A DNA stretch of 64,000 bases from Bdellovibrionota bacterium. Its GTDB lineage: Bacteria > Bdellovibrionota_C > UBA2361 > OMII01. The number at the start of each line of letters is the position of its first letter. The stretch's first letter is position 1. Made by a program: the position numbers and the translations under genes. Positions 11,301 to 24,837 of this stretch are shown one piece after another. Under the pieces are notes generated by a model. It saw only the letters and a list, made by a program, of their open reading frames with translations, searched no databases and was not told the origin of the DNA. The DNA lies in the NCBI GenBank assembly GCA_044351795.1, contig JBILFA010000001.1, positions 28,094 to 92,093 of the forward strand. Direction: 5' to 3'.

Positions 11301-11412
11301 CGCCGGGCGTTTGCAGCATCGACATACGTATGTTTTGGAACGATGTGGTTGTTCGCGAAGATGGTGCAGGTCGTAGCTCGAGTGCCCGGCGACCGGGGGA
11401 GGACGAAGGTCC

Positions 11413-12570: not shown

Positions 12571-12684
12571 CTTTGCCTATAGCTCCGAGCCTTTAACGAC
12601 GGAGTCGGATGCCCGTTTTATTATCGCCAGACTTTAATATAGGAGGGTTTTCTATCCTTAAGCAAGGCAGGCTTTACTAAGCGA

Positions 12685-13135
12685 GGCGCTTTGAGGTGTA
12701 TTCCGACGGGCGTACTGCGGTGATTGAGAATTTTCGGGGTGTGCGGAGTTTTGGCTTCAAAGGATTGAAGAGCAAGCACTTGTGGTCGCAGCAGAAGGGG
12801 CATGCGGAGTGTGTGGATGCGTTTCTGCGGGCGGTGCGTGGGGAGGATGTTGTGATCCCTTCTTGGGAGGAGATCCGGAATGTTACGCGGGCTACTGTGT
12901 TGGCTCGGGAGGCTGTGCGGAGTGGGGTTTCGTTTCGGGTTGAATAGGGTTTTGAGGGTTCCGGCTTAAGGCGACCGACACGGTCGCCCTCCCAATGTGA
13001 TTCGGGATTGGTTGGGGGCTGGCGCGATCGGCGAGACCCGGTTCCGGCTTGAGGCGACCGGGACGGTCGCGGTCCATGCGGATTCGGGGATGGTTGAGGT
13101 CTCTGGCGCGGACGGCGGCACACCGTCCCTCCTAA
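12685..13135 (+). repeat. repeat copy S1: oxidoreductase 3'-fragment (…GVSFRVE*) plus hairpin module H1/H1'/H2
   Basis: Protein fragment EVYSDGRTAVIENFRGVRSFGFKGLKSKHLWSQQKGHAECVDAFLRAVRGEDVVIPSWEEIRNVTRATVLAREAVRSGVSFRVE. Followed by ggcgaccgacacggtcgcc (12970–12988), ggcgaccgggacggtcgc (13053–13070) and gcgcggacggcggcacaccgtcc (about 13107–13128). Confidence 0.85.
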
Positions 13136-13229
13136 GGGCACGTGGAGCGGTTGATGTTGGTGTTCACGACTACGGCTGGGACCTCGCGGCGGAAGGTCCG
13201 TGGGGTCCATCGATTTATCTTCATACTAC

Positions 13230-14147
13230 TCACAGTGAGAGGACCTTCTTCAGGTTCTCGAGCTGCCGCGCGTGCTTGCCGGGTTCCATCCTTGCGATAT
13301 TTTGAAGTTTCCACTGAATTCCAGGGAGCTGATCAATACCTGTAATGGGAATCAGATCCCATTGAGGTGCTCCAGCTTTGACGGAAACAAGAAACCTGCG
13401 CTCGTTGTCGCTCAAGTCAACTCTCAGCTTTTGAACAACCTCTGCTCGGGTGGCTTCGAGGCTTTCGTACGACACCGAGATTCGACTCATACCGACGAAC
13501 TCGCTCTGGAATATGGTGCGCATATCCAGATAGCTCGGATCGAGTAATTCGTGCATCGGCCTGCTGTGGCTTGCCAAATACAGTACGAATGCCTGCCGTA
13601 TCTGGGTTGTTATACCTTCATTTTCGAGAAGGAGCTTTGCATCGAAGAGATCTCTTGGATGTTGCCTATCGAGAACTGCACACAGTTTCCCGCCGAAGAC
13701 ATCTCCGAAGGACAGTGTGGTAACTTCCGCATATGCTGAAAATCGGGTTTGAGCTGATTCACAAAGCTCTCGTATCTCACACGGAAAAACACTTCCACGC
13801 AGTACGAAATTCGGCTCGATTTTGATGACCGCACCATTGGCCGAGAGAACGAGGCTTCCTATCGTTTTATCGAGTGGCCCTCATGCTTTTTGAACTTTAC
13901 TGTAAGGTACCGCTGCGCATATTCGGTCGGCGAGAGAAGAGAGCGCACGGCTGATACCCTCGATTGTACGCTCGCGACTCTCCAATGGAAGATACGTTAC
14001 ATCGATATCCACAGAGAGACGCGGCATTTCTCGCATGAAGAGGTTTATTGCGGTGCCGCCTTTGAGGGCAAAAACCTTCTGCTCAGCTACCAATGGCAAC
14101 ACTTGTAGTAGCAGCTCAACTTGACGCGAGTACCGCTCGTTGCTCAT
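13230..14147 (-). pseudogene. AbiEii/AbiGii-family nucleotidyltransferase toxin, disrupted by an in-frame TGA and a probable pair of frameshifts
   Basis: N-terminus KGGTAINLFMREMPRLSVDIDVTY (NTase GS…DxD motif). In-frame TGA at 13881–13883 followed by protein-like continuation GPLDKTIGSLVLSANGAVIKIEPNFVLRG. Conserved …FGDVFGGKL / AVLDRQHPRDLFDAKLLL segments lie in two frames around the A5 run at 13736–13740 and the site at about 13680. Confidence 0.6.
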
Positions 14148-14920
14148 CGGGATCCCTCATCAAAAAGGTCCGCTGGCAGTGTGAGGCGATATTTAGGGTG
14201 GAGTTTTCCGCTTTTCACTAATGTTCTATCGCCGCTGCCAAGGTCGATCTTGTCCAGATTCAATTTCTTTACCCACGGGAGTTTTAGCTCCTCGGCTAGG
14301 AGGAGAAAGAGGCGCTTTACCTTGATCGATGAGCAGCTTTCGAGAAGCTGCTGGACAAGCTTCGGACGTAGCGTCAGCAGTCCCGTCATGAGAAGGCGTG
14401 CTTCCGATAGGCTCTGATTCTTTGGCGCTGCGTGGAGCGTCTCCAGCATCGCACGTTCCCGTGAGGATACTTGGATTGAAAAGCTGCCGACGGTTTGTGA
14501 GGAGAGGCCAATGTCGTGAGGGAGTAGGTTCGTCGTCGCAAGCGTTATCGGGACACCCCAGTCGTGACGAGAGAACCAGCTGGGCAGGCGCGTTCCGGGA
14601 TCGGCGAAAAGTGCTACGTCCTCGCTGTCGAACTTGATAAAATGCGCAGCACCGTGATACGCCAAAGCGCTCTTACCCCCGAGATGAACAGGAAGCCTCG
14701 ATTGCTGCTGAAGGGCGAACAGACCGCCGCGCCAGTCAACCACATCACCAGCCTTTGCGAATGCTCCCCGACCGATGCCCACGAGCCACCCAGAGGTCCG
14801 ATAGTGATGAAGCAATACGTCGCTATAGCCGCGTTTCTTCAGAGTGGCGCTGGTAAAGACTGTCCCGCTGGGCCAGCTTAGTAAGAGCTGCTGTATTTTG
14901 CTTCGTTTTTCTGAAACCAT
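14144..14920 (-). CDS. AbiEi-family antitoxin (type IV TA), wHTH N-terminus
   Basis: 258 aa; 4-nt overlap with the abiEii start (ATGA); N-terminal region typical of AbiEi transcriptional-regulator antitoxins. Upstream AT-rich promoter carries a perfect palindrome. Confidence 0.6.
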   Translation of the reverse strand: MVSEKRSKIQQLLLSWPSGTVFTSATLKKRGYSDVLLHHYRTSGWLVGIGRGAFAKAGDVVDWRGGLFALQQQSRLPVHLGGKSALAYHGAAHFIKFDSEDVALFADPGTRLPSWFSRHDWGVPITLATTNLLPHDIGLSSQTVGSFSIQVSSRERAMLETLHAAPKNQSLSEARLLMTGLLTLRPKLVQQLLESCSSIKVKRLFLLLAEELKLPWVKKLNLDKIDLGSGDRTLVKSGKLHPKYRLTLPADLFDEGSR

Positions 14921-14971
14921 ACTTAATAAAGTAGCATATTTTCGTAGGACTACACTGTGATTTTATATTCA

Positions 14972-14994
14972 TTGCTTAAATTGAGCTTAAGCAA
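14972..14994. promoter_or_regulatory. candidate operator palindrome TTGCTTAA-N7-TTAAGCAA in the AT-rich abiEi upstream region
   Basis: Perfect 8-bp inverted repeat read directly in an unusually AT-rich about 200-bp stretch (14921–15120), 50–75 bp upstream of the abiEi start; AbiEi antitoxins are known to autoregulate via inverted repeats. Confidence 0.4.
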
Positions 14995-15189
14995 TATGTA
15001 TACATCTACTGCAACTGCCACTAATACTAAGCTAATCTAAGTAGTTACAATATATATGGCGATCGCTTATAGCTTTTCGAGCTAGGAATGCTAGGCGGGC
15101 TCATGTGCCGGGGCGCTACGAGTCTAACTACGAGAAGAAGGGGCTCGATTATCCGATCGGTTTCGTGCGCTGGACGGAGCAGCGCAATT

Positions 15190-15600
15190 TCGAAGCTGTG
15201 CTTTTGAGATGCATTCCGACGGGCGCACTGCGGTGATTGAGAATTTTCGGGGTGTGCGGAGTTTTGGGTTCAAAGAATTGAAGAGCAAGCGCTTGTGGTC
15301 GCAGCAGAAGGGGCATGCGGAGTGTGTGGAGGCGTTTCTGCGGGCGGTGCGTGGGGAGGATGTTGTTATTCCTTCGTGGGAGGAGATCCGGAATGTTACG
15401 CGGGCTACTGTGCTTGCTCGGGAGGCTTTGCGGAGTGGGGTTTCGTTTCGGGTTGAATAGGGTTTTGGGGGTTCCGGCCGAAGGCGACCGGGACGGTCGC
15501 GGTCCATGGGGTCGGATTCCGTCATAGCTGATGTCGAGGATCCAGGCGAACGGCGACCGACACGGTCGCCCTCCCAATGTGATTCGGGATTGGTTGGGGC
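15190..15600 (+). repeat. repeat copy S2: oxidoreductase 3'-fragment (…GVSFRVE*) plus hairpins H1' (15483–15500) and H1 (15552–15570)
   Basis: Near-identical to S1/S3/S4. Hairpin order H1'-H1 is reversed relative to S1. Confidence 0.85.
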
Positions 15601-15685
15601 CGCTGAGCTTAGCATGTGCAAGATGGGGGATATGGCTATCTATCACCCGATTGCTTAATTACAAAATCGGCGGTAATCTGTAACT

Positions 15686-16852
15686 ATGATCGACAGAGTA
15701 GTTAAGATACCGAAGAAAGGGCACTTTTTTCTCTTCGGCCCGCGCCAAACTGGGAAGAGTTCACTCGTAAGGGTAGCTTTTGAAGCACATGAGACACTCT
15801 CTATTAATTTGCTGCTCAGTCAGGAATATCGGCGACTGAAGCTAGACCCCGGGCTGATCGCGAGCGATGTTGGCGGCCGTGGGCCTGAGGTGCGTTACGT
15901 CGTCATCGACGAAGTACAGCGGGTTCCCGAGCTGCTCGATGAGATACACCACCTGATCGAATCGCCGAATGCACCTTACTTTGTGTTGACGGGCTCCAGC
16001 GCCAGAAAGCTCAAGCGTGCGAAGGCAAACCTCTTGGGTGGAAGAGCGAGCACTATCGAACTCTTCCCTCTAACCTATAAAGAACTCGGGGATCGTTTCT
16101 TCCTTGATCGAGCACTAGCATGGGGAACTCTTCCAAAACTGTACCTCGAGAACGACGAAGAGGAGCGCGCTACCTTTCTGCGCTCGTACGTCGACAACTA
16201 TCTCAAGGAGGAGATTCAAGCCGAAGCTGCGGTGCGAAACCTCTCGACGTTCCTGCGCTTCCTACCGCTTGCTGCCGAGTCAAATGGACAGGAGCTGAAC
16301 TTCTCGAAGATCGCGCGCGTGTGTCTGTCGAACCACAACACGATTAAATCTTACTATCAGATCCTGGAAGATACTCTCATCGGAAGATTTCTACTTCCTC
16401 TAGCAGGCTCGACACGACAACAGCTGTCGAAGAGACCAAAGTTTTATCTTTTCGATACGGGGATCATTCGAGCAATTCTAGGGCGCGAGCGTGCCCAACT
16501 ACACCCAGGCACGTACGAGTTTGGCGCACTCTTCGAGTCCTGGATCATCAACGAGGTGTGGCGGATAAATAGCTACTACAAAAAGAACCTACAGACATTT
16601 TTTTATCGTACCGACGCCGGTGCCGAGGTCGATCTGATCATCATCGATCCCCACCGCGCGAGGTACGCGATAGAGATCAAGAGCGCGAGCGACGTCGCAC
16701 CCGCGGATCTTGGAGCGGGCTTTGAGTCCTTAAGCGCTCACGGAGAGCTAGCGAAGCGTATCTGCGTAACAACGGGACCACGACCTTATTCGTCACAGGG
16801 AGTCGATTTTATGCCGTGGCGCGATTTTTTCGAGTGGCTCGTAGCCGTGTGA
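15686..16852 (+). CDS. AAA+ ATPase with C-terminal DUF4143-like domain
   Basis: Walker A GPRQTGKSSL, Walker B VVIDEVQ; architecture typical of the widespread ATP-binding protein (DUF4143) family. Confidence 0.75.
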   Translation: MIDRVVKIPKKGHFFLFGPRQTGKSSLVRVAFEAHETLSINLLLSQEYRRLKLDPGLIASDVGGRGPEVRYVVIDEVQRVPELLDEIHHLIESPNAPYFVLTGSSARKLKRAKANLLGGRASTIELFPLTYKELGDRFFLDRALAWGTLPKLYLENDEEERATFLRSYVDNYLKEEIQAEAAVRNLSTFLRFLPLAAESNGQELNFSKIARVCLSNHNTIKSYYQILEDTLIGRFLLPLAGSTRQQLSKRPKFYLFDTGIIRAILGRERAQLHPGTYEFGALFESWIINEVWRINSYYKKNLQTFFYRTDAGAEVDLIIIDPHRARYAIEIKSASDVAPADLGAGFESLSAHGELAKRICVTTGPRPYSSQGVDFMPWRDFFEWLVAV

Positions 16853-16904
16853 CGGTGGTTACTTAGACTCTGCAAGGCAAAGACATCGGCAGGAATTCCT
16901 ATTG

Positions 16905-17085
16905 AGAACGTGTCGGGTGGGGGCGTTTTGGGGTGGCGGTTATCGTGGGGTCGGACGTGTGGCGACCGGGACGGTCGCGGTCCGTGGGGATGTAATTCCG
17001 TAATGGCTGATGTCGATGATGCACGCGAACGGCGACCGACACGGTCGCCCCTCCCAATGTTACATGTATCTGGAATGGTTATTAC
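16905..17085 (+). repeat. hairpin-only repeat unit (no coding fragment): H1' 16961–16978 and H1 17031–17049
   Basis: …gtggcgaccgggacggtcgcggtccgtgggg…gaacggcgaccgacacggtcgcccctcccaatg; same module as downstream of the S-copies. Confidence 0.75.
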
Positions 17086-17141
17086 GTTGCCATTCTAGGC
17101 ATTTAATAGTGCTATACATTATCATTAACTTCTCCTAGAAT

Positions 17142-17651
17142 GTGTTTATGGACATTATCCGAGCGATTGTAACGCAAGTCGACGAAGAGCTTTCTCGCCT
17201 CACTGACGCGCGTCGCTCAGAGGATCTGCCAGGGCTCAAGCCGCTTGAAATCAAAGTTTTAGGGCAGATGTCCTTGCTAATGGATCCGGTCGGGCAATCG
17301 CTTAATCCTGCGGCGACTCGAGATATCGACGCTCTGTTGATGGGGGATCTCCTAGCGATAAATATATTCAGAGCCGTAATAAAATCGCACAGCCTTGTGT
17401 TTGACGAGCTCAGTAAAGAAATTTGGCTACCCGAGACTGCTGTGTTTATCCCGTACCATTCATCTGCGCACCTGATTGTTTCCTATGTGGATTCGATCTC
17501 GGCGTTAACGAGCAAAGCGATAAAGGCGAAAGAGAAGAATCGATATCTGATACGAAGAGGGCTAGAGGTTTTTGGAAAGCCACTCGAGGAAGCTATCGTT
17601 CGGTACGGCGGAGATATCAACTACTTCGTAGTCGGCAAGCTGGGGCTGTAA
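17142..17651 (+). CDS. hypothetical protein (possible minimal nucleotidyltransferase-like; uncertain)
   Basis: 169 aa. Weak GQMS…(17 aa)…RDIDAL resembles an NTase Gly-Ser…DxD pattern but is unconvincing. First gene of a 2-gene operon. Confidence 0.4.
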   Translation: MFMDIIRAIVTQVDEELSRLTDARRSEDLPGLKPLEIKVLGQMSLLMDPVGQSLNPAATRDIDALLMGDLLAINIFRAVIKSHSLVFDELSKEIWLPETAVFIPYHSSAHLIVSYVDSISALTSKAIKAKEKNRYLIRRGLEVFGKPLEEAIVRYGGDINYFVVGKLGL

Positions 17652-17652
17652 T

Positions 17653-18159
17653 ATGGCCAAACGAGCACCAAAGATCTCACAGAGTCTGGAGCGCAGAGTA
17701 TTTGGCTTTTTTGTTGCCAAAGGGCTTCTTATCGCACCTCACATAGCGCCGAAGAGCTCTGTGAAGCTGCGAATCGCCGATGTTGTGAATGTTGGGCTTC
17801 ATGTTGAGCCCCGAATTATCGAGGTGCTGCCGGCAGCGCTGCTCCACTTTCCGCGCTCTTTCATCGGATATGAGGATATGCCGGAAAAGTTGAGAGAGGC
17901 GCTCGACTGTATTCGCTCTGGACGGGAGTCAGGGCCCTCTCTCGCAGGTATTCCGTACAAAGCGATACTTCGCTGGGCAAACGAACCTCTGCCTGATAAG
18001 CGAACACGGCCCGAGAGAGACCGCCGTATAACAAAGGCCTTTAGGCTGAAGCGGGCTGCTCTCGAGAAGCTGAAAACTGATGCCTCTTCGGCAGGATTAA
18101 CGGAGACTCGGTACCTGGAGGAGCTTCTACTCGGCGGGGAATTTCAGGGCGAGAATTAA
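17653..18159 (+). CDS. hypothetical protein, basic; second gene of coupled pair
   Basis: 168 aa; start ATG 1 nt after the upstream TAA (translational coupling); no recognisable motif. Confidence 0.4.
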   Translation: MAKRAPKISQSLERRVFGFFVAKGLLIAPHIAPKSSVKLRIADVVNVGLHVEPRIIEVLPAALLHFPRSFIGYEDMPEKLREALDCIRSGRESGPSLAGIPYKAILRWANEPLPDKRTRPERDRRITKAFRLKRAALEKLKTDASSAGLTETRYLEELLLGGEFQGEN

Positions 18160-18177
18160 AGCCTTCTAGAGAGGTAC

Positions 18178-18289
18178 GAGGGCAAAAACGTTCTGCTCAG
18201 CTACCAATGACAGCACTTGTAGTAGCAGCTCAACTTGACGCGAGTACCGCTCGTTACTCATCGGGATCCCTTATCAAAAGGTTCGCTGG
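18178..18289 (+). repeat. partial duplicate of the abiEi/abiEii junction (copy of about 14070–14175)
   Basis: ggcaaaaacgttctgctcagctaccaatgacagcacttgtagtagcagctcaacttgacgcgagtaccgctcgtt(a/g)ctcatcgggatccct… matches 14070–14170 with a few mismatches, fused directly to repeat A2. Confidence 0.75.
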
Positions 18290-18870
18290 TGGAGCTGGAT
18301 GGGCCAGTCTCGATGGTAATGACGGTCACTGCTGGGCGGCTTCCGGCGAATAGTTGGATCATGGATGAGGCTGAAGGTGGTGGGCGAGTTATTAGTGAGG
18401 TGTGCCACTTTATCGATCTGATGGTGGCTGTGTCGGGATCTTTGGTTAGTTCGATCTCGGGGTTGGGATTACGGGAGAGTGGACGGGAGTTGCAATCGGC
18501 GAGCTTTTCGCTTGGGTTTTCAGATGGATCTATCGGGACGATTCACTACTTTGCGAATGGAAGTCGCAAGGTGCCTAAGGAGCGCTTTGAGGTGTTCTCG
18601 GATGGGCGTACTGCGGTGATTGAGAATTTTCGGGCTGTGCAGAGTTTTGGGTTCAAGGGCTTAAAGAGCAAGCGCTTGTGGTCGCAGCAGAAGGGGCATG
18701 CGGTGTGTATGGATGCGTTTCTGCGGGCGGTGCGGGGGGAGGATGTTGTTATTCCTTCGTGGGAGGAGATCCGGAATGTTACGCGGGCTACTGTGCTTGC
18801 TCGGGAGGCTTTGCGGAGTGGGGTGGCGTTTCGGGTGTAGGAAGGCGGCTGTATCGGTCGCCGTTCGTTC
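18290..18870 (+). repeat. repeat copy A2 (longest): about 180-aa C-terminal portion of the Gfo/Idh/MocA-type oxidoreductase (…GVAFRV*) plus trailing hairpin
   Basis: VELDGPVSMVMTVTAGRLP…DEAEGGGRVISEVCHFIDLM…FSLGFSDGSIGTIHYFANGSRKVPKERFEVFSDGRTAVIENF…EEIRNVTRATVLAREALRSGVAFRV*; followed by gaaggcggctgtatcggtcgcc. Confidence 0.8.
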
Positions 18871-18902
18871 GACCCCACCCCTGCGCCATCTTCGCAGTTG
18901 CA

Positions 18903-18950
18903 GTCGGCTAGCTTTTCGCTTGGGTTTGCTGATGGATCTATCGAGGCTCT
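18903..18950 (+). repeat. mini-fragment of the same oxidoreductase repeat (…LQSASFSLGFADGSI…)
   Basis: agttgcagtcggctagcttttcgcttgggtttgctgatggatctatcga matches 18507–18552 and 10966–11000. Confidence 0.6.
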
Positions 18951-19016
18951 TCCCCCTGCCGGATCACCGAGGAATTGCATTGACGCTGACGCCGTCCGGC
19001 TATACCATGGATAACT

Positions 19017-20231
19017 ATGGATTGGCCAAGTATATGGATACAAAGAGATTTTGAAGGTCTCTTAGAGTCTGCCTCGTCTCTGGGGCCCTTCTCGGTGCTG
19101 CTCCTACTTGGCCCGAGACAGGTAGGGAAAAGCTCGCTTCTCAACCGGTGCACGCCACTCGGCACCCAGAAAGTGAATCTCGATGATTTGGACGTCCGCA
19201 CTCGAGCGAATCAAGATCCTGCGTTGTTCGGCCGGGAGCTGGAGGTTCCGCTCCTCATCGATGAAATACAGTATGCGCCTGCTCTGTTGAGTCAGGTCAA
19301 AATACTTGCTGACCGCTTCCCGCGAGAGCTCAAGATCTTTCTCACTGGCTCGCAGAGTTTCGAGGTGATGCCTGGTGTCCGCGAAAGCCTCGCGGGTCGG
19401 GTTGCGATTCTCAATCTTTTCGGACTCTCGCTATCCGAGAAGGGGCTATCTGACGAGACTTCGCCCATCGAGTTTTTCAAGGAGTTTTTCATCGGAACAT
19501 TTCCAGCACTCCGTACCAGTGAGAATCCTGTCTGGACGCGCTACATGAGCAGTTACGTGCAGACCTACGTTCAAAGAGATGTCGGTGAACTGCTGGGTAT
19601 CCAAAAGCGCAGAGAGTTCGAACTCTTCTTGAAAGCGTGCGCACTGCGGACTGGCCAGCTGATTAACTATGAAGAATTGGCGCGGGATTCGTCAGTATCG
19701 GCAGCCACTGCTAAAGAATGGCTATCGATCTTGGAAGACAGCTTCCTTATTCGGCTCGTGCATCCTCATTTCAACAATCGCACCAAACGATTGATAAAGA
19801 CACCGAAGCTTTACTTCCTGGACACTGGCCTGTGTGCCTATCTCGCAGGATGGCGTGATAGTGAGCAGATTCGTGTCGGGCCGTGGGCTGGAGCGTTTTT
19901 TGAGACTGCAGTTTTCGGTGAGCTAGTCAGATACTTTTCGCACCGGGGCCTCGATTATCAGATTCACTTCTGGCGAGACAAGGACGGTAATGAAGTTGAC
20001 TTTCTAGTAGAAACGGGGGGAAGAATCTACCCAATCGAGGTCAAGCTCGGCACCCCTAATCCACGCGATCTTTGCTCTCTCGAGAGACTACAAGTTCCGG
20101 GTATCGAAGACGGTACTGTCGTCTCTATGGCTATGAGGGCAGCTGAAGGTGGGAGGAGAGCGCATGTCAAGGATCGATGGGTAGCGGCTGGTGTCAGAAT
20201 CGATAGAGTATTCGGACGTGCTGCAGTCTGA
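19017..20231 (+). CDS. AAA+ ATPase with DUF4143-like domain (paralogue of 15686–16852)
   Basis: Walker A GPRQVGKSSLL, Walker B LLIDEIQ; same architecture as 15686–16852. Confidence 0.75.
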   Translation: MDWPSIWIQRDFEGLLESASSLGPFSVLLLLGPRQVGKSSLLNRCTPLGTQKVNLDDLDVRTRANQDPALFGRELEVPLLIDEIQYAPALLSQVKILADRFPRELKIFLTGSQSFEVMPGVRESLAGRVAILNLFGLSLSEKGLSDETSPIEFFKEFFIGTFPALRTSENPVWTRYMSSYVQTYVQRDVGELLGIQKRREFELFLKACALRTGQLINYEELARDSSVSAATAKEWLSILEDSFLIRLVHPHFNNRTKRLIKTPKLYFLDTGLCAYLAGWRDSEQIRVGPWAGAFFETAVFGELVRYFSHRGLDYQIHFWRDKDGNEVDFLVETGGRIYPIEVKLGTPNPRDLCSLERLQVPGIEDGTVVSMAMRAAEGGRRAHVKDRWVAAGVRIDRVFGRAAV

Positions 20232-20257
20232 GGCTGTGGTGGCTTCATAGCGTTCTC

Positions 20258-20600
20258 TGACGGGCGCACTGCGGTGATTGAAAATTTTCGGGGTGTGCGG
20301 AGTTTTGGGTTTAGGTGTGTGAAGAGCACACGGCTGTGGTCGCAGCGAAGGGGCATGCGGAGTGTATCGATGCGTTTCTGCCGGCGGTGCGGGGGGAGGA
20401 TGTTGTGATCCTTTCTTGGGAGAAGATCCGGAATGTTACGCGGGCTACTGTGCTTGCTCGGGAGGCTGTGCGGAGTGGGGTTTCGTTTCGGGTTGAGTAG
20501 GGTTTTGGGGGTTCCGGCTTTAGGCGACCGGGACGGTCGCGGTCCATGGGGTTGTGATTCCGTAATAGCTTATGTCGATGATGCAGGCGCACGGCGGGGG
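20258..20600 (+). repeat. repeat copy S3: oxidoreductase 3'-fragment (…GVSFRVE*) plus H1' (20523–20540) and a degenerate second hairpin
   Basis: Starts 27 nt after the ATPase stop. Several substitutions (e.g. …VVAAKGHAECIDAFLPAVRGEDVVILSWEKIRNV…) suggest an older or decaying copy. Confidence 0.8.
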
Positions 20601-20671
20601 AATACATTCGAGTGGATTCGTTCATCAAAAGACGACAACATGTAATTAGCTGTTTATTTAATGATGCTTGT

Positions 20672-20965
20672 ATGATCGACTTAAACGACATTCACTCTCT
20701 CTCTGATTTTCAGCGGAACGCTAAGGACCACATCGAGCGCTTGAAGAAAACCGGAAAGCCTGAGGTCTTAACCGTCAACGGGAGGGCAGAAGTAATTGTC
20801 CAAGACGCCCAATCGTACCAAGCGCTCATAGAAACGATCGAGCGTCTCGAAACCCTCGCTGGTCTCCGACTTGGGCTTCAGGAGGTCGAGCAAGGCAAGA
20901 CCGCATCGGCTCAAGATGTCTTTACTCGCATGCGCACTAAGCACAAGATTCCCAAGCGCGCATGA
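20672..20965 (+). CDS. Phd/YefM-family type II antitoxin
   Basis: MIDLNDIHSLSDFQRNAKDHIERLKKTGKPEVLTVNGRAEVIVQDAQSYQALIETIE… matches the Phd/YefM fold pattern. Start probably at the internal ATG 20672 rather than 20612. Stop overlaps the next ORF's ATG (ATGA). Confidence 0.7.
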   Translation: MIDLNDIHSLSDFQRNAKDHIERLKKTGKPEVLTVNGRAEVIVQDAQSYQALIETIERLETLAGLRLGLQEVEQGKTASAQDVFTRMRTKHKIPKRA

Positions 20966-21066
20966 TCTTCAAAGTACAGATTACCCAGCAGGCCGAAGCC
21001 GAATTAAATGAAGCCTACGAATGGATCGCCAACCAGTCGCTAGAACAGGCAGTGGTCTGGTTCAAG
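20962..21066 (+). pseudogene. RelE/ParE-family toxin, N-terminal about 35 aa only; truncated by insertion of repeat copy S4
   Basis: MIFKVQITQQAEAELNEAYEWIANQSLEQAVVWF is a typical ParE N-terminus. Reading frame then runs directly into the repeat (KGLKSKRLWSQQKGH…GVSFRVE*). Confidence 0.65.
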
Positions 21067-21320
21067 GGTTTAAAGAGCAAGCGCTTGTGGTCGCAGCAGA
21101 AGGGGCATGCGGAGTGTATGGATGCGTTTCTGCGGGCTGTGCGGGGGGAGGACGTTGTTATTCCTTCGTGGGAGGAGACCCGGAATGTTACGCGGGCTAC
21201 TGTGTTGGTTCGCGAGGCTGTGCGGAGTGGGGTTTCGTTTCGGGTTGAGTAGGGTTTTGGGGGTTCCGGCCTTAGGCGATCGGGACGGTCGCCGTCCGTA
21301 GGGATGTTATTCCGTAATGG
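21064..21320 (+). repeat. repeat copy S4 (short, begins at …KGLKSKRLWSQQ) plus hairpin ggcgatcgggacggtcgcc (21275–21292)
   Basis: Direct sequence identity to the other S copies; 5' boundary lies inside the parE coding sequence. Confidence 0.8.
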
Positions 21321-21371
21321 CTGAGGTCTATGAGGTACGCGCACGGGAAACGTGAGGATTGCTCTGGCGAT

Positions 21372-22652
21372 TTACTCTGTAGCATGAGCCACTCTAAATG
21401 CCGGGGCCATTCGGGCTTGCTCACTCTTGCCGATCTTTATCCCCTTTGCCTCAATCGGCCATGCTTTGACTGCCTTTATGACTCGGTTGATTGTCGCCTT
21501 GGCTTGTTTCGCATTCAACCGAAAGAAAGGTGCAACCTCTAACGCGAGGTCCAGTGACTGTGCGTTGTCGGTCTCGGATATATTAAGTAGTAGTCCATCT
21601 CCTAGGGGATTTGGGTTTACGTCGTACATGGGAGAGAGCGCCCACCCTTGCGGAGTAAGGAGGAATCCGTGATTACGCAGATGATCGTCTACGTTGGAAA
21701 CACATATCGAGAAAACGATTCGAGTCCACAGCTCATGCAGGTCTCTTTGAGGGCAAGCTCCGCTTCGAACAATAAGCTCTGCAAGCTCTAGATAGCTTGC
21801 GCCATCTGAACCGCTGTCGCCATCATTTCGCTGAAGAAGGGTCATGGCAGAAGCAAAATGAATTCTCGAGCGCCGAGCACCTCGATCAAATCGCTGCGTA
21901 AGAAAGGTATGGTGATCAGAGGCCAGCGTCCTCAAGCGCACGTTTGCCACATCTAGCCCGGCTTTTTTAGCAAGGGTGTGAGCCAGGTACTCCCATGCTC
22001 CGACATCATAGGTGTCACCTTTGCTGGGAAATTTCGCAATCCACAGAGCACCTTTAGGATCAATCACACTTGCCTTGGGTCTCGCACCTCCAAGAGAAGC
22101 CCCTGGAGCCATGAGCATAGAGAGCCATTTCTTGTAGCCAGGCTTGGTTTCAGCTCCGCTTTTCTCTAGCTGTAGGCTTGCGTGCTCTAGCTCGCGAAGC
22201 GATGTCCAGGGTGGTGCTGCGTAGGCATGATCGTCATCGAGGAAGGGGCCATCGGCGCTTGTCTTGAATCGTAAGCCTCCCATGCGGTGACCATCGTAGA
22301 CCCCCAGGAGGTAGTCAGACTCTCGAAGTGGCACAACTGCCCTACCCTCCTCTCGAGCTCGTTGGGCTTCCCGGCGGTCCATGAGTACTCGGCCCCATCG
22401 GTCCGGGCTGGAATCCAGGAAGAGGTTGAAGCTACCTGCTCCTTCTGGGGCGTATTGAACTCCGGTATAGAGAGCAAGCGAGGGATCCAGGTTTTGAGCG
22501 TTCGGAGATTGCAACCACTCCTTGTCGTACTCAAATGCAAAGATCTCTCTACCCCTTCCAGGAGAGGCGTACAGAGTACCGAGCCTCTGCGGGTTCTCCA
22601 TACCGATCCAGTCGGCCCACACCTCGATGCGCTTTCTCTCTCCCTTTCGCAT
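21372..22652 (-). CDS. hipA: HipA-family serine/threonine kinase toxin
   Basis: About 426 aa; HipA N-terminal coupling domain plus C-terminal kinase-like region (GGARPKASV…WIAKFPS, DDHLRNHGFLL with catalytic D-x-H-x-x-N). Confidence 0.85.
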   Translation of the reverse strand: MRKGERKRIEVWADWIGMENPQRLGTLYASPGRGREIFAFEYDKEWLQSPNAQNLDPSLALYTGVQYAPEGAGSFNLFLDSSPDRWGRVLMDRREAQRAREEGRAVVPLRESDYLLGVYDGHRMGGLRFKTSADGPFLDDDHAYAAPPWTSLRELEHASLQLEKSGAETKPGYKKWLSMLMAPGASLGGARPKASVIDPKGALWIAKFPSKGDTYDVGAWEYLAHTLAKKAGLDVANVRLRTLASDHHTFLTQRFDRGARRSRIHFASAMTLLQRNDGDSGSDGASYLELAELIVRSGACPQRDLHELWTRIVFSICVSNVDDHLRNHGFLLTPQGWALSPMYDVNPNPLGDGLLLNISETDNAQSLDLALEVAPFFRLNAKQAKATINRVIKAVKAWPIEAKGIKIGKSEQARMAPAFRVAHATE

Positions 22653-22660
22653 GGTGTGCT

Positions 22661-22981
22661 CTACGTGCGCCTCATTTTGGGCGCACGCTCCTTTGGTTTG
22701 AGCTCAGAGTCTTGCAGCTTTCGCCCCAACACATCATCCCTTCCCAAGTGAGCAAGGTCCTCCTGGAGCCCCAAGGCGGCAAGAACATTGACGTAGGCAC
22801 CCATGGCTACGCTCCCATCGCCACGCTCGATGGAGCGTAGGGTCGGAAGAGATATGTCCGCTCGCTCCGCTACGATTTGGCTTGAGAAGCGCCGTCGTAG
22901 CCTAGCTAGCCTTAGGTTCTCTCCCACTTGGCGTAGAAGGCGCTGTGCCGAGGGTAGAATGACAGGTGTACGCTTGGCCAT
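22661..22981 (-). CDS. hipB: XRE-family HTH regulator (HipB-like antitoxin)
   Basis: Cro/C1-type HTH (LRLARLRRRFSSQIVAERADISLPTLRSIERGD) immediately upstream of hipA, 9-nt spacer. Real start probably MAKRT (22981). Confidence 0.7.
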   Translation of the reverse strand: MAKRTPVILPSAQRLLRQVGENLRLARLRRRFSSQIVAERADISLPTLRSIERGDGSVAMGAYVNVLAALGLQEDLAHLGRDDVLGRKLQDSELKPKERAPKMRRT

Positions 22982-23044
22982 AACAGCAAATATAATTACC
23001 AATAAAATGCTTTATTGCAACTTTATTTTCACCTATTTTAAGAG

Positions 23045-23400
23045 CACGTGCGTGTGGTCGCAGCAAAAGGGGCATGCGGAGTGTATCGATGCGTTTCTGC
23101 GGGCGGTGCGGGGAGAGGATGTTGTGCTCCCTTCGTGGGAGGAGATCCGGAATGTTACGCGGGCTACTGTGTTGGCTCGGGAGGCTGTTCGCAGTGGGGT
23201 TGCGTTTCGGGTGTAGGAAGGCGGCTGTGTCGGTCGCCGTTTGTTGGACCCCACCTCTGAGCCACCTTCGCAATCGACATGATCGTCAAATGCAGGCGTA
23301 TGTCGATGGTGCCAACGCACGGCGACCGACAGGGTCGCCCTCCCCGGGGATTCGGGGAGGGTTGAAGGCTCTGGCGCGGACGGCAGCACGCCGTCCCTCC
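23045..23400 (+). repeat. repeat copy A3: oxidoreductase 3'-fragment (…GVAFRV*) plus H1 (23320–23338), a GGGGAGGG-type stem (23337–23364) and H2 (23373–23396)
   Basis: …WSQQKGHAECIDAFLRAVRGEDVVLPSWEEIRNVTRATVLAREAVRSGVAFRV*; ggcgaccgacagggtcgcc; ccctccccggggattcggggaggg; gcgcggacggcagcacgccgtccc. Confidence 0.8.
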
Positions 23401-23422
23401 TGGGCCATCGGCGTTTGCGATT

Positions 23423-24110
23423 TCAGCGAGCTAATGAACAAAACGTCTGAATTTGAGCAAATATCTTTTCTGCTCTCACCCGTTCGGACCGATGTAGGCA
23501 TCCATACACTGCATCTATGAAATCCTGGTCTTGCAATAGGACGCTGAATTGATTGCGAAGGAACCCTCTCACTTCCCTATCGGCCGTTACCAGCTTATCG
23601 ACGAAATTACTACAGCCGTCGATTACCAATACTATATCTTCAATATCGCTGGAGCCGCGGTAATCGTTCTGGCCCCGCGAATGAAAGGCCTCAAGCTTGG
23701 TCGCGATGAAACATGCAAGAGATAGTATCTTTATCTTGGTACCGGAGGGCAGCGAATACTCCTGACACTCTTGATATCCCTTGTCATACCATCTGTTCGA
23801 AAAACCAAGTATGTCTTCCGCCAAGGGCATGACATCAACGGTTATGTTTTTATAAATCCATCGGCAGATCGGGGCTCCAACCCTGGAATCATTTGCAAAG
23901 CCTTTTCGTCACAGCTCATAGGAGAGTTCGTCGAACTGCTTTTTGGATCCTACTTCCACGATGCAATCGACATCCTCAGTAGGGCGAGATTCAGGAGCTC
24001 CCTTACTATCGATATACAAGGAGGCAGTGGCTCCACCTACGAAAACAGCCTGACTCAACAGTTACCCGAGGCCTGCTGCTACTATCTCTAATCTTTCAAT
24101 ATTGGTGTTC
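23423..24110 (-). pseudogene. minimal nucleotidyltransferase (AbiEii/MNT-like), apparently frameshifted
   Basis: One frame gives LSQAVFVGGATASLYIDSKGAPESRPTEDVDCIVEV (GG…S…DxD NTase motif) ending in a stop just before the 135-aa ORF 23423–23830 in another frame. No single open frame spans the gene. Confidence 0.4.
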
Positions 24111-24127
24111 ATGCGATTGGGACACAG

Positions 24128-24690
24128 TCACGCTACACCGCCAAGCTCAACTCCGAACCTCTTTTCGAGTTCTCGCTTGGCAATCTTCTGCTCACGGACC
24201 CTACCTATACGTAGGGCATCGACTAATGAGAGAAGCTCGTGCAATTCTCTATCCTTGGACGCCGCGAATGGCGCGCTCGAATAGAGGGGCGTTACCGAGT
24301 GCCCCCTGATATCTCCATCAGGGAATGGCCACACGTACTGATCTTCCTTTGCGCTCACGATACCCTTTGAAAGTGGTAGTGCGGAATGAGCAGTCGCTAT
24401 ACCTCGAACCACCGGACCAAGCTCGACGGGAAAAACATACTTCAATCCATACACAAGAAATTCCAAGGCATTCCGCTTAAGCACCGCTTTCTTATCAGAG
24501 CTCAGTAGTTGGGATCTGACGAGCCGCTCGAGCCCATGCGAAATCTCTGAGGGGCTTACCCCTACATCTACCGCTAGATCAATCACTCTGGGGGTAGCCT
24601 CCAAGGTGAGTATCTTGAGCAGTATCAGGATATCTTGTGGTTTTAACGGTGAGGTTCTTCGCATAAGAGATCTTGCCTCCTCCATAACTA
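24128..24690 (-). CDS. HTH-domain protein (AbiEi-like / transcriptional-regulator antitoxin candidate)
   Basis: Putative wHTH region ILILLKILTLEATPRVIDLAVDVGVSPSEISHGLERL. 3' end 17 nt from the NTase gene. Annotated 5' end (24736) overlaps a perfect palindrome, so the real start is probably downstream (about 24650–24690). Confidence 0.45.
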
Positions 24691-24704
24691 TCATACTATG
24701 CATT

Positions 24705-24731
24705 TTGTGATTTGCAAATTGCAAATCACAA
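24705..24731. promoter_or_regulatory. perfect 27-bp palindrome TTGTGATTTGCAA-A-TTGCAAATCACAA at the 5' end of the HTH gene (candidate operator)
   Basis: Read directly: ttgtgatttgcaaattgcaaatcacaa, symmetric about AATT. Confidence 0.5.
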
Positions 24732-24837
24732 CACAAATAGTTTTAATAATTTACCCCCATCTCAGGCGACACGGGCGCTGTTACCGGATCGTATGAGGGG
24801 TAAATTGCCATGTCTTGAGATGCCCCATTGCGCCGGC

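What the first reader, a model, noticed from the sequence alone, without database searches (positions are those of the whole stretch)
12948..23400. Two alternating subfamilies of the repeat with distinct tails and shuffled hairpin modules
Copies fall into an 'A' type (ends …GVAFRV*, followed by gaaggcggctgtRtcggtcgcc; at 11270, 18830, 23210) and an 'S' type (ends …GVSFRVE*, followed by tagggttttgggggttccggc…GGCGACCGGGACGGTCGC…; at 12930, 15450, 20490, 21240). The trailing modules (H1 ggcgaccgacacggtcgcc; H1' ggcgaccgggacggtcgc; H2 gcgcggacggcRgcacRccgtccc; a cccaat/attggg stem) occur in different orders and numbers (S1: H1-H1'-H2; S2: H1'-H1; unit at 16905: H1'-H1 without coding fragment; A3: H1-variant stem-H2). 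This BIME-like modularity suggests at least two source loci or lineages feeding the same array, and that the hairpins rather than the coding fragment are the active part.
Basis: seen in the sequence. Interest (0 to 1): 0.55.

Follow-up and report, generated by a model that had tools for sequence, protein, structure and literature searches.

The report
Defence cassettes separated by gene-end repeats
This 14-kb stretch of a Bdellovibrionota genome is a stack of small anti-phage and toxin-antitoxin gene cassettes, each bounded by a leftover copy of the end of one sugar-pathway gene plus its hairpin-rich trailer, so the repeats look like scars showing how a defence hotspot without its own integrase was built and reshuffled.

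Summary
The sequence facts are real. Seven + strand copies of the 3' end of a bi-domain GFO/IDH/MocA oxidoreductase gene ("X") lie between 10963 and 23216, each followed by hairpin modules. One further unit has the trailer only, and there are two internal X pieces.

"Two alternating subfamilies" does not hold. The A/S mark covers only the last ~13 coding bases plus the leader. Upstream, the fragments are mosaics: A1 is 97% identical to S1 and A2 is 96% identical to S2. Mean identity within types equals identity between types. The order is A S S T A S S A, and there are at least four trailer alleles.

In related Bdellovibrionota MAGs, intact X is followed by the same hairpins, so fragment and hairpins together are simply the native 3' end of one locus.

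Between the repeats sit defence or toxin-antitoxin cassettes: SoFic, AbiE, two PDC-S01 ATPases, Phd/ParE, HipBA and PDC-M21. Relatives carry the same cassettes in different orders.

No integrase is present, and both kinds of junction are ragged.

Best explanation: insertion-duplication (Campbell-type) homologous recombination stacks cassettes downstream of X, followed by gene conversion, shuffling and deletion. I rate it a new variant of island accretion or defence hotspots, of moderate interest.

The parts
10963..11282 (+). X copy A1: 3' end of the oxidoreductase gene from about -345, with a 25-nt internal deletion, ending GVAFRV*. Its trailer (11283-11397) is cut inside an H hairpin.
11398..12685 (-). 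Fic cassette (gene 11413-12570). PADLOC SoFic, E = 1e-122.
   Evidence: orthologous copy in L272
12686..12947 (+). X copy S1 (from about -278), ending GVSFRVE*.
12948..13135 (+). S1 trailer: S leader, H1 (12970-12988), second hairpin (to 13017), a degenerate H2, a repeated leader end, H1' (13053-13070), a second hairpin, and H2 (13106-13129). It reads as two stacked trailer units.
   Evidence: (D6)
13136..15106 (-). AbiE cassette: AbiEii broken into pieces (13230-14147) and AbiEi (14144-14920).
   Evidence: AbiEii is intact in L272
15107..15460 (+). X copy S2. An upstream X piece (15107-15202, matching about -1280 to -1186 of intact X) is joined to -268..stop, so this is an internally deleted long copy.
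15461..15613 (+). S2 trailer: S leader, H1' (15483-15500), linker, H1 (15552-15570), second hairpin.
15614..16904 (+). ATPase-1 cassette (DUF4143/AAA_14 gene 15686-16852; PADLOC PDC-S01).
   Evidence: 93% identical copy directly after intact X in L081
16905..17060 (+). T unit: trailer only (T leader, H1' 16961-16978, linker, H1 17031-17049). It is homologous to the trailer that follows the stop codon of intact X in L081.
17061..18177 (+). Cassette with two unknown ORFs (17142-17651 and 17653-18159).
   Evidence: no family match; 92% identical copy in L081 and copies in L273 and L274, each in a different neighbourhood
18178..18289 (+). Remnant of a second AbiE cassette (93% identical to 14064-14170), abutting X copy A2.
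   Evidence: (D8)
18290..18840 (+). X copy A2, the longest in the window (from about -530). Its trailer (18841-18895) is cut at +55.
   Evidence: (GFO_IDH_MocA_C3)
18896..18952 (+). Internal X piece (about -362 to -305), a deletion scar.
   Evidence: (D7)
18965..20242 (+). ATPase-2 cassette (gene 19017-20231; PDC-S01).
   Evidence: 96% identical copy in L081; absent between the same neighbours in L273, L275 and L276
20243..20596 (+). X copy S3 (from about -256, with a 1-nt deletion, stop at 20498-20500) plus its trailer (S leader, H1' 20523-20540, linker). The trailer ends at the 5' foot of H1 (..GCGCACGGCG|).
20597..21058 (+). Phd/YefM antitoxin plus the 5' part of ParE. ParE is fused by a deletion to X copy S4 (ORF 20962-21252).
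   Evidence: ParE is intact in L273 and L275
21059..21334 (+). X copy S4 (from about -200) plus its trailer (H1' variant 21275-21293, linker). The trailer ends at the H1 foot (..GCGCACGGG|).
21335..23036 (-). HipA (21372-22652) plus HTH/HipB-like gene (22661-23002) cassette.
23037..23401 (+). X copy A3 (from about -182, stop at 23214-23216) plus a full trailer: degenerate H, linker, H1 (23321-23339), 10-bp second hairpin, H2 (23374-23397).
   Evidence: z = -3.1
23402..24826 (-). PDC-M21B-like gene (23423-23830, truncated) and PDC-M21A-like gene (24128-24736): a candidate defence pair.
   Evidence: in L272 the same gene is followed by a full X copy and then Fic
24827..24919 (+). Internal X piece (from about -345), 3'-truncated. 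This is the last X-derived segment of the array.
   Evidence: (D5)
25010..25772 (-). RAYT-like Y1 (HUH) transposase element at the right edge of the array. It is flanked by its own hairpins (AAGTCGTGNCNGTCACGACTT), which differ from the H modules.
   Evidence: two copies lie inside the L081 array

Best explanation
WHAT IT IS (shown). The region 10963-24919 is a lineage-specific defence and toxin-antitoxin island. It grew in the gap downstream of a polysaccharide-cluster gene, here called X, a 752-aa bi-domain ADH/GFO-IDH-MocA oxidoreductase. Every cassette of one or two genes is bounded by a 5'-truncated copy of the 3' end of X, plus X's native hairpin-rich downstream region. In this genome X itself has lost its 5' part.

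HOW IT WAS BUILT (inferred).
1. In different strains, different defence genes landed at various points in the roughly 300-nt trailer between X and the convergent Wzy gene.
2. DNA segments spanning part of X, the trailer and a cassette then entered related cells, or were looped out of existing arrays. As circles, they integrated by a single homologous crossover in the X 3' region (Campbell-type insertion-duplication).
3. Each such event leaves a continuous copy on the left and a 5'-truncated, 3'-complete copy on the right of the new cassette. Repeated events stack cassettes.
4. The 180-550-nt direct repeats then serve as portable homology for RecA-type recombination. This re-orders, deletes and exchanges cassettes between strains, homogenises neighbouring coding fragments by gene conversion up to the point where the heterologous leaders begin, and erodes copies by deletion.

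The A/S/T marks are allelic trailer variants that survive because conversion tracts cannot cross the non-homologous leaders. The hairpins are a REP-like element family resident in X's 3' region. They multiply in tandem and add homology, and possibly fragility, but they are not a dedicated recombination site.
For: Identity of the repeat:
- It matches Pfam GFO_IDH_MocA_C3.
- Intact X in L001 (8279-10537) and in L081 is followed by H1'-linker-H1, or by the T leader-H1'-linker-H2.

Cassettes are defence or toxin-antitoxin genes:
- SoFic, AbiEi/AbiEii, PDC-S01 twice, PDC-M21A/B, HipA and Phd/ParE.

The same cassettes occur in a different order or are present/absent in relatives:
- L081: X | ATPase-1 | deleted RAYT | ATPase-2 | X fragment | unknown pair | RAYT.
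- L273/L275/L276: unknown pair | X | Phd-ParE, with no ATPase-2.
- L274: ATPase-2 | X | unknown pair.
- L272: PDC-M21A | X | Fic | X | AbiE.

The arrangement is real:
- L271 is 100% identical to the window.
- A 10.3-kb contig from another sample has the same gene order.

No dedicated recombinase was found:
- No integrase or recombinase domain was found among the large ORFs annotated across the window up to ~57.7 kb; the last ~6 kb (three ORFs at 57761-63909) was not scanned.

Junctions are ragged on both sides:
- X copies start at -182, -200, -256, -268, -278, -297, -320, -345, -345, -362, about -500 and -530 or beyond.
- The 14 tail|cassette junctions tabulated fall at 8 or more positions, by inspection.

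Copies are 5'-truncated but 3'-complete, as insertion-duplication predicts.
- One copy retains X sequence from about -1280.
- One duplication extends into the neighbouring AbiE cassette (family D8). The duplicated segment is therefore arbitrary, not a defined site.

Mosaicism and gene conversion:
- A1 is 97% identical to S1 and A2 is 96% identical to S2, differing almost only in the terminal tag.
- The otherwise orthologous Fic-X-AbiE segment (94% identical) carries an S trailer in the window but an L001-type trailer in L272.

Copies were brought in, not made in place:
- Third-codon-position excess among variable sites is 8/7/19 for window copies and 16/15/37 for all copies. My chi-square on these counts gives p of about 0.02 and 0.001.
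- Copies within the genome are as divergent from each other as they are from the orthologues in L001 and L081.
- Several trailer alleles occur in every genome examined.

The phenomenon is lineage-specific:
- None of 155 other X-homologue loci has a second copy.
Against: - No circular intermediate, and no empty-versus-filled pair with both junctions inside homology, has been seen. The window and L273 differ by a replacement with non-homologous ends, so illegitimate events are also needed.
- Three independent cassettes (Phd-ParE, HipBA, and HigBA in L003) start within about 4 nt of the 5' foot of the second H hairpin. This hints at a hairpin-directed step. By my rough estimate, such clustering would arise by chance about 1 time in 10.
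- Left boundaries cluster loosely around -256 to -278 and -320 to -362.
- Natural transformation, or another delivery route, is not established for this lineage.
- How each cassette first landed in the trailer is unexplained.
- Only 64 kb of the source genome could be read, so a recombinase acting in trans cannot be excluded.
Confidence: 0.5

Rival explanations
1. Site-specific tandem accretion. Small integrative elements, mobilised by an integrase encoded elsewhere or since lost (CIME-like), insert into the 3' end of X and carry a replacement 3' end. Each insertion displaces the previous 3' end to the right.
For: - Array architecture of this kind, with repeated pieces of a target-gene end or att site between the modules, is what accretion at gene 3' ends (PMC5704250) and tycheposon arrays with partial tRNAs produce.
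- Third-codon-biased divergence fits element-borne replacement ends that are under selection.
- Truncation points cluster loosely at -256 to -278 and at -320 to -362.
Against: - No integrase gene was found in the annotated ORFs of the window or in any of the six related arrays read, and almost all array sequence is accounted for by cassettes.
- All 12 left boundaries differ, and several are demonstrably secondary deletions.
- One copy reaches about -1280, and one duplication includes AbiE sequence.
- Repeats of 180-550 nt or more are far longer than typical att cores.
- X-trailer sequences are absent from 2.9 million viral contigs.
Confidence: 0.2
2. A hairpin-directed single-strand recombination system. 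The H1'-linker-H1 structure would act like an integron attC site, or like an IS200/IS605-type end. A structure-specific enzyme would capture cassettes at the hairpin foot. Candidates are an IntI-like recombinase elsewhere in the genome, or the RAYT-like Y1 transposase found in the arrays.
For: - Three cassettes begin at the 5' foot of the second H hairpin.
- H1'-linker-H1 can fold into an 8-bp stem, a 3x3 internal loop, a 7-bp stem and a variable terminal part. This geometry resembles attC.
- The stems of the second hairpin differ between copies while pairing is kept: CCCAAT/ATTGG, CCAT/ATGG, CCCTCCCC/GGGGAGGG.
- A RAYT-like gene lies at or inside the arrays in both the window and L081.
Against: - Most junctions are not at the hairpin foot. 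They lie inside the loop of the second hairpin, after it, 9 nt after H2, and 60-110 nt after H2.
- No R-box (GTTRRRY) or other shared motif is visible at cassette ends.
- Cassette orientation is mixed (5 on the + strand, 4 on the - strand), unlike integrons.
- No intI is present.
- The RAYT is flanked by a different hairpin (AAGTCGTGNCNGTCACGACTT) at 25014, 25748 and 26145, and it scores below NCBIfam's cut-off (61 against 80 bits).
- Folding z-scores are mostly weak, from -0.5 to -1.9.
- This model does not explain why the coding fragments are duplicated.
Confidence: 0.12
3. Local tandem duplication of the X 3' region, for example by unequal exchange between hairpin modules, followed by independent insertion of defence genes into each spacer. 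In this model the repeats are made in place and no DNA carrying X arrives from outside.
For: - Copies tend to resemble others in the same genome (L003a/b 96%, L081a/b 94%), and neighbours are most alike.
- Hairpin modules do stack in tandem (the S1 trailer; L164).
Against: - A duplication made in place would copy the resident trailer type. Instead, each genome mixes 2-4 non-homologous leader alleles, and the same alleles recur in other genomes.
- Divergence between copies is biased to the third codon position and is as large as between species-level relatives.
- The same cassettes recur in other genomes at 92-99% identity in other positions.
Confidence: 0.1
4. Metagenome assembly artefact: strain variants chained together through a shared repeat.
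For: The window comes from a metagenome-derived contig. L002 and L003 are contigs of one MAG that break inside the repeat.
Against: - Cassette-to-X(-n) junctions would not exist in single-cassette strains, yet the same junctions are found in independent assemblies from other samples. L271 is 100% identical over 2.6 kb, a 10.3-kb contig has the same gene order, and L272-L277 agree.
- The repeats differ by 3-11%, which is enough for them to be resolved in assembly.
Confidence: 0.03

Closest known systems
Tandem accretion of integrative elements and CIMEs at the 3' end of a gene (ICESt1/CIME at fda and similar; review PMC5704250)
   Same: Successive modules are stacked next to one target gene, and each is bounded by a repeat that contains the end of that gene. 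Modules are decayed and lack mobility genes. Composite structures can be rearranged.
   Different: No integrase or relaxase is present anywhere. The repeats are long (180 to over 1200 nt), ragged at both ends and mosaic, with no fixed core. Modules are single defence or toxin-antitoxin systems of 1-3 kb.
Tycheposon islands of Prochlorococcus (10.1101/2020.12.28.424599)
   Same: Islands grow by repeated insertion at one site. New arrivals push older ones outward, and partial copies of the target gene are scattered through the island.
   Different: Tycheposons carry tyrosine recombinases and target tRNA genes with short partial-tRNA att repeats. Here the target is a protein-coding gene and no recombinase is seen.
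Integron cassette arrays and CALINs
   Same: Array of small, mostly promoter-poor cassettes of one or two genes, rich in toxin-antitoxin genes. Cassettes are separated by a structured palindromic repeat, and their order differs between relatives.
   Different: There is no intI, no R-box or L-box signature, and no fixed crossover point. Cassette orientation is mixed. The separator includes a coding fragment of a neighbouring gene.
REP/BIME elements with RAYT transposases
   Same: Short GC-rich palindromes sit downstream of a stop codon and combine in varying number and order. A near-identical module occurs in tandem elsewhere (L164).
   Different: In about 128 kb of this lineage they are confined to one locus. 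All are in one orientation relative to X. The only RAYT-like gene has different flanking hairpins.
Core defence hotspots without MGE hallmarks (cDHS of P. aeruginosa, PMC10250203)
   Same: A variable set of defence systems lies between conserved chromosomal genes, is not assignable to a known MGE class, and is proposed to move by homologous recombination of the flanks.
   Different: Here the flank homology is copied between every pair of cassettes. This leaves a visible scar for each event and allows single cassettes to be exchanged.

Membership tests
Integron / CALIN | Integron integrase gene (intI) adjacent to the array. Not required for CALINs. | tested here: not met
   No tyrosine-recombinase domain was found in any annotated ORF of the window or in the called genes of related arrays. 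The last ~6 kb of the window and the rest of the genome were not scanned.
Integron / CALIN | attC sites: R''-L''...L'-R' imperfect palindromes with a conserved GTTRRRY R-box, and the cassette boundary within it. | tested here: not met
   By inspection of all trailers, there is no conserved R-box and boundaries fall at 8 or more different positions. Only the overall stem/internal-loop/stem geometry of H1'-linker-H1 resembles attC. No dedicated attC model (HattCI) was available.
Integron / CALIN | Cassettes co-oriented with respect to the array. | tested here: not met
   Orientation is mixed. Fic, AbiE, HipBA and PDC-M21 are on the - strand. The ATPases, the unknown pair and Phd-ParE are on the + strand.
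REP / BIME | Many copies dispersed in intergenic regions across the genome. | tested here: not met
   All hits in the 64-kb window lie in X trailers. The same holds in L001, L002, L003, L081, L272 and L273, about 128 kb in total. The whole genome was not available.
REP / BIME | A cognate RAYT gene flanked by the same REP. | tested here: not met
   The RAYT-like ORF 25026-25763 is flanked by AAGTCGTGNCNGTCACGACTT, not by H modules.
REP / BIME | Mosaic combinations of REP variants and linkers, classically in alternating orientation. | tested here: inconclusive
   Variable combinations of H1, H1', H2 and linkers are confirmed. However, all flanks run in one orientation, and most variants can be derived from one template (H-linker-H-second hairpin-H2) by truncation or stacking.
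Tandem accretion of integrative elements (ICE/IME/CIME) | [quoted passage not shown] | tested here: inconclusive
   Repeats containing the end of X bound each module. However, the left ends are all different (-182 to beyond -530), and no common core can be defined.
Tandem accretion of integrative elements (ICE/IME/CIME) | At least one element or relative with an integrase of matching specificity. | tested here: not met
   None was found in the window, in 7 related loci, or in viral contigs carrying X-trailer sequence (searches gave 0 hits). Complete genomes could not be searched.
IS200/IS605-type or RAYT-mobilised units | Unit bounded by subterminal hairpins, with cleavage at a fixed distance and a conserved target tetra- or pentanucleotide. 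| tested here: not met
   No conserved nucleotides are seen at cassette ends. Hairpins lie on one side of the cassettes only.
Chromosomal defence hotspot exchanged by flank homology (cDHS-like) | A variable defence-gene content at a conserved chromosomal position, without MGE hallmark genes. | tested here: met
   PADLOC and Pfam calls for the cassettes. Position downstream of X in the window and in L001, L003 and L081. No mobility genes apart from an inserted RAYT-like element.

The most novel reading that the evidence does not exclude
The H1'-linker-H1 hairpin pair downstream of X is the attachment site of a still unidentified, trans-acting, structure-specific recombination system. This system would be integron-like but lack IntI, or be HUH/RAYT-driven. 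It would capture single defence cassettes at the hairpin foot, and the coding-fragment duplications would be a by-product.
Probability: 0.1. Interest if true: 0.8.

Novelty: new variant of a known kind. Interest (0 to 1): 0.45.

Why it matters
Many chromosomal defence hotspots carry no integrase or transposase, and how they are assembled is an open question (see the discussion in PMC10250203).

In this array, each insertion seems to have left a scar: a truncated copy of the flanking gene's end with its trailer. The history of gain, loss, reordering and conversion can therefore be read directly and compared between strains.

If the insertion-duplication reading is right, ordinary homologous recombination plus a duplicated flank is enough to give integron-like cassette shuffling. 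It would also provide a searchable signature for finding such hotspots in other genomes: tandem 5'-truncated copies of a core gene's 3' end between defence genes.

Tried and rejected
- Rfam at gathering thresholds and ARAGORN over the whole window found nothing, so the hairpins are not a known RNA family or tRNA/tmRNA fragments.
- The exact-protein look-up of the Asn synthase to identify the source contig found nothing on record. The source lineage was instead identified through the fragment ORFs.
Almost all are chance matches inside coding regions of GC-rich phages. Only L164 and L198 share the flanks as well. Two scans with X-end and linker sequences gave 0 hits, so there is no phage- or plasmid-borne attP-like copy.
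- RNAalifold on the H-second hairpin-H2 modules recovered only the H stem. The MAFFT alignment of the variable second hairpin was too poor to count covariation, so the compensatory changes I list are by eye.
- I tested whether a cassette travels with the trailer type on its left or with the X fragment on its right. Neither association is conserved between the window and L081, so the phase of the mobile unit could not be fixed.
- I tested for a fixed crossover site. This is rejected for the left boundaries. For the trailer side there is only a weak hint (3 of 14 junctions).
- I checked whether duplication of X's 3' end is a general property of this gene family. It is not: 0 of 155 other loci show it.
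- One literature look-up (PMC10121019) did not contain the phrases I searched for and is not used.

Full report
1. WHAT IS IN THE SEQUENCE

The repeat is the 3' end of a protein-coding gene, always on the + strand, always running to the same stop codon and always 5'-truncated.
- blastn and tblastn with the longest copy (18290-18840) find copies at 10963-11282, 12686-12947, 15203-15460, 20243-20500, 21059-21252 and 23037-23216. They also find two internal pieces at 18896-18943 and 24827-24919 (repeat families).
- The longest copy matches Pfam GFO_IDH_MocA_C3.
- There is no intact copy in the 64 kb.
- The hairpin pattern gives 21 matches against 0.09 expected, all between 11287 and 23339.
- There is no Rfam family and no tRNA in the window.

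2. WHAT LIES BETWEEN THE REPEATS

The spacers hold known or candidate defence and toxin-antitoxin systems, one per spacer:
- Fic (PADLOC SoFic, E = 1e-122).
- AbiEii/AbiEi, with AbiEii broken.
- A DUF4143 ATPase (PDC-S01).
- Two unknown ORFs.
- A second PDC-S01 ATPase.
- Phd plus a truncated ParE.
- HipA plus an HTH gene.
- A PDC-M21B/A pair.

Five cassettes are on the + strand and four on the - strand.

The context is polysaccharide biosynthesis. The left flank is a polysaccharide-biosynthesis cluster ending in an asparagine synthase. Further polysaccharide genes lie to the right. The only DNA-processing gene found in the annotated ORFs (up to ~57.7 kb of the window) is a RAYT-like Y1 transposase at 25026-25763. 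It carries its own, different, hairpins at 25014, 25748 and 26145.

3. WHERE THE REPEAT COMES FROM

The closest relatives are Bdellovibrionota MAGs.
- In L001, the intact 752-aa gene "X" (ADH_N + ADH_zinc_N + GFO_IDH_MocA) ends ..GVAFRV*. It is followed after 6 nt by H1', a 52-nt linker and H1. Next come a decayed AAA_14 remnant and the convergent Wzy gene.
- In L081, the intact gene is followed by the "T" leader, H1', the linker and an H2-like hairpin.
- The window's unit at about 16905, "without coding fragment", is homologous to that T trailer. It is therefore a repeat copy truncated beyond the stop codon.

The coding fragment and the hairpins together are the native 3' end of one locus. 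In about 128 kb from this lineage, the modules occur only there and in one orientation.

Duplication of the X end is confined to this lineage. None of 155 other loci with X homologues has a second copy.

4. THE TWO-SUBFAMILY CLAIM

Over the last 174 nt, mean identity is 92.3% for A-A, 92.7% for S-S and 92.3% for A-S.
- A1 differs from its neighbour S1 at one site plus the terminal tag.
- A2 shares the S2 backbone.
- Only the codon GCG/TCG, the ending GTG-TAG versus GTT-GAR-TAG, and the leader are linked to type.
- L003a combines GVAFRV* with an S-like leader. L272b combines GTG-TAG with an L001-type leader.
- The order in the window is A S S T A S S A.
- The A leader is a degenerate H hairpin placed 3 nt after the stop.

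I read this as gene conversion between neighbouring copies. The conversion stops where the non-homologous leaders begin, which leaves the tag as the only stable marker. A direct example supports this. The Fic-X-AbiE segment is 94% identical between the window and L272, yet it carries an S trailer (H1..H1'..H2) in the window and an L001-type trailer (H1'-linker-H1-H2) in L272.

5. THE CASSETTES MOVE

The same cassettes, at 92-99% identity, stand in other orders in relatives.
- L081: X | ATPase-1 | deleted RAYT | ATPase-2 | X fragment | unknown pair | RAYT | ACP/SDR genes.
- L273, L275, L276: unknown pair | AbiE remnant | X | Phd + intact ParE | long X. ATPase-2 and the S3 unit are absent.
- L274: ATPase-2 | X | full trailer | unknown pair.
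- L272: PDC-M21A gene | X | Fic | X | intact AbiE.
- L003: two X copies (96% identical) flank a HigB/HigA-like pair.

The window's own arrangement is reproduced in independent assemblies. L271 is 100% identical over 2.6 kb, and a 10.3-kb contig has the same gene order. This argues against an assembly artefact.

6. THE JUNCTIONS

Aligned to intact X, the left ends of the copies are all different: -182, -200, -256, -268, -278, -297, -320, -345, -345, -362, about -500 and -530 or beyond.

Several are demonstrably secondary deletions:
- ParE is intact and followed by X from about -500 in L273, but fused to X at -200 in the window.
- L273 keeps about 110 nt more of X upstream of the A2 copy than the window does.
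- S2 retains a piece from about -1280 joined to -268.
- A1, S3, L272a and L273 have internal deletions.

One duplication extends into the neighbouring cassette. The AbiE sequence at 14064-14170 is repeated at 18178-18284, directly upstream of A2 (family D8).

On the other side, the trailer-to-cassette junctions fall at many positions:
- inside H1' (A1);
- at +55 of the A trailer (A2);
- at the 5' foot of H1 (S3, S4 and L003a);
- inside the loop of the second hairpin (T, L273 and L274);
- after the second hairpin (S2);
- 9 nt after H2 (L081a);
- 60-110 nt after H2 (S1, L272a/b and L081b).

No motif is shared by cassette ends. The three junctions at the hairpin foot are the only hint of site specificity. 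I estimate roughly a 1 in 10 chance of seeing such a cluster among 14 junctions in a 300-nt trailer, and S3 and S4 may not be independent.

7. WERE THE COPIES MADE IN PLACE OR BROUGHT IN?

- Variable sites fall 8/7/19 by codon position among the window copies, and 16/15/37 among all copies, out of 58 sites per position. My chi-square on these counts gives p of about 0.02 and 0.001. Much of the divergence therefore arose in functional alleles.
- Copies in the window are 89-97% identical to each other, and 87-92% identical to the intact genes of L001 and L081.
- Every genome mixes several non-homologous leader alleles, and these alleles recur in other genomes.

This favours import of X-bearing DNA from other strains over duplication in place.

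8. MECHANISM (INFERENCE)

The observations to explain are:
- copies that are 3'-complete but 5'-truncated;
- arbitrary extent of the duplicated segment;
- ragged junctions on both sides;
- mosaic copies;
- reassortment of cassettes and trailers;
- mixed cassette orientation;
- absence of any recombinase.

All of this is what Campbell-type insertion-duplication by general homologous recombination produces. A circular molecule carrying part of X, the trailer and a cassette recombines once with the resident X end, or with any existing copy. This leaves a continuous copy on the left and a truncated copy on the right. Recombination between direct repeats regenerates circles, deletes or re-orders cassettes, and converts neighbours. 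Each cassette's position in the trailer would date from its first, illegitimate, insertion between X and Wzy in some ancestor.

No step has been observed directly. I give the whole scenario about 0.5. The descriptive part, a defence-cassette array bounded by duplicated X ends at a lineage-specific hotspot, I regard as secure.

9. RIVALS

- Integrase-driven accretion (as in PMC5704250, or tycheposons) gives the same gross architecture and would also explain the codon-position bias. It needs a fixed core and an integrase, and neither was found. X-trailer sequence is absent from viral contigs.
- A hairpin-directed system (integron-like or HUH) is suggested by three things: the three foot junctions; the attC-like alternative fold of H1'-linker-H1 (8-bp stem, 3x3 loop, 7-bp stem); and apparent compensatory changes in the second hairpin. 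Against it are the scattered junctions, the missing R-box, the mixed orientation, the weak folding z-scores (-0.5 to -1.9, and -3.1 for the A3 module), and the different hairpins around the RAYT-like gene.
- Duplication in place and an assembly artefact are unlikely, for the reasons given in sections 5 and 7.

10. ARE THE HAIRPINS AN INDEPENDENT ELEMENT?

Partly.
- Of 111 viral stretches, nearly all are chance matches in coding DNA.
- L164 carries three tandem 73-nt units..GGGTTGAGAGTTGAGGGATCGGACCGGTCCCGGGCGACCGGGACGGTCGCGGTCCCA.., immediately after the stop of a capsid-like gene. L198 carries one copy. These share 23 nt with H1' plus its flank and resemble the S leader.

The H modules therefore belong to a wider REP-like family that can exist and multiply in tandem without X. 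Within this lineage, however, they were seen only at X.

11. COMPARISON AND NOVELTY

The array works like an accretion island or an integron-type cassette array. It sits in the class of chromosomal defence hotspots that lack MGE hallmarks, whose mode of assembly is an acknowledged open question (PMC10250203). It fails the defining tests for an integron, for BIME/REP-RAYT and for integrase-mediated accretion (see the membership table).

I rate it a new variant of a known kind and of moderate interest. It is not a new enzyme system on present evidence, but it is a clear, readable example of how an integrase-less hotspot may grow. It also offers a signature that can be searched for elsewhere.

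Noticed in passing
window 25010-25772 and 26145-26165; L081 11903-12418 and 15486-16330: A RAYT-like Y1 (HUH) transposase element of about 760 bp, bounded by AAGTCGTGNCNGTCACGACTT hairpins, sits at the right edge of the array, with one solo hairpin 380 nt further on. L081 has two copies inside its array (92% protein identity). One copy is internally deleted. The other has partially duplicated ends on both sides.
   Followed up: partly
L164 (IMGVR_UViG_3300019790_000032) 940-1170, - strand; L198 3250-3285: Three tandem 73-nt units sit directly after the stop codon of a capsid-like gene in a viral contig. Each contains GGCGACCGGGACGGTCGCGGTCCCA preceded by GGGTTGAGGG-type repeats. L198 carries one further copy. 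The core and flank match H1' of the window, so the hairpin belongs to a wider REP-like family.
   Followed up: partly
window 14064-14170 and 18178-18284: A 107-nt piece of the AbiEii/AbiEi gene pair is duplicated (93% identity) directly upstream of X copy A2. A second AbiE cassette, or a duplication spanning AbiE plus X, once stood there.
   Followed up: partly
window 20962-21252: A 96-aa ORF fuses the N-terminal part of a ParE toxin to the C-terminal 64 residues of X. Relatives (L273, L275) have an intact 101-aa ParE, so the fusion is a deletion product. This may leave the Phd antitoxin without a working toxin.
   Followed up: yes
window 10707-11282: X itself is inactivated in this genome. 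The leftmost copy starts at about -345 and abuts a 256-nt non-coding stretch next to a divergently oriented asparagine synthase. In relatives, a UDP-GlcNAc 2-epimerase precedes intact X. The upstream polysaccharide cluster therefore seems to have been replaced.
   Followed up: partly
window 12989-13017, 13071-13100, 15571-15599, 23340-23362; L081 14303-14330: The second hairpin after each H module keeps a GATTCGGG-like loop while its stem changes: CCCAAT/ATTGG, CCAT/ATGG, CCCTCCCC/GGGGAGGG. These apparent compensatory changes suggest the structure is maintained. They were judged by eye only.
   Followed up: partly
window 15483-15570 and 16961-17049; L001 10544-10632: H1' and H1 are palindromes of the same sequence. 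The H1'-linker-H1 pair is therefore predicted to fold either as two local hairpins or as one long stem (8 bp, 3x3 internal loop, 7 bp, about 50-nt terminal part). The long-stem geometry is reminiscent of attC sites.
   Followed up: partly
window 15686-16852 and 19017-20231; L001 10943-11422: Three different DUF4143/AAA_14 ATPases (PADLOC candidate system PDC-S01) occupy this hotspot in different genomes. This suggests the protein family is frequent cargo here.
   Followed up: no
window 17142-18159: A conserved pair of overlapping ORFs (169 and 168 aa) behaves as a cassette in four genomes. It has no Pfam, NCBIfam or PADLOC match and could be an undescribed two-gene toxin-antitoxin or defence module.
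   Followed up: no
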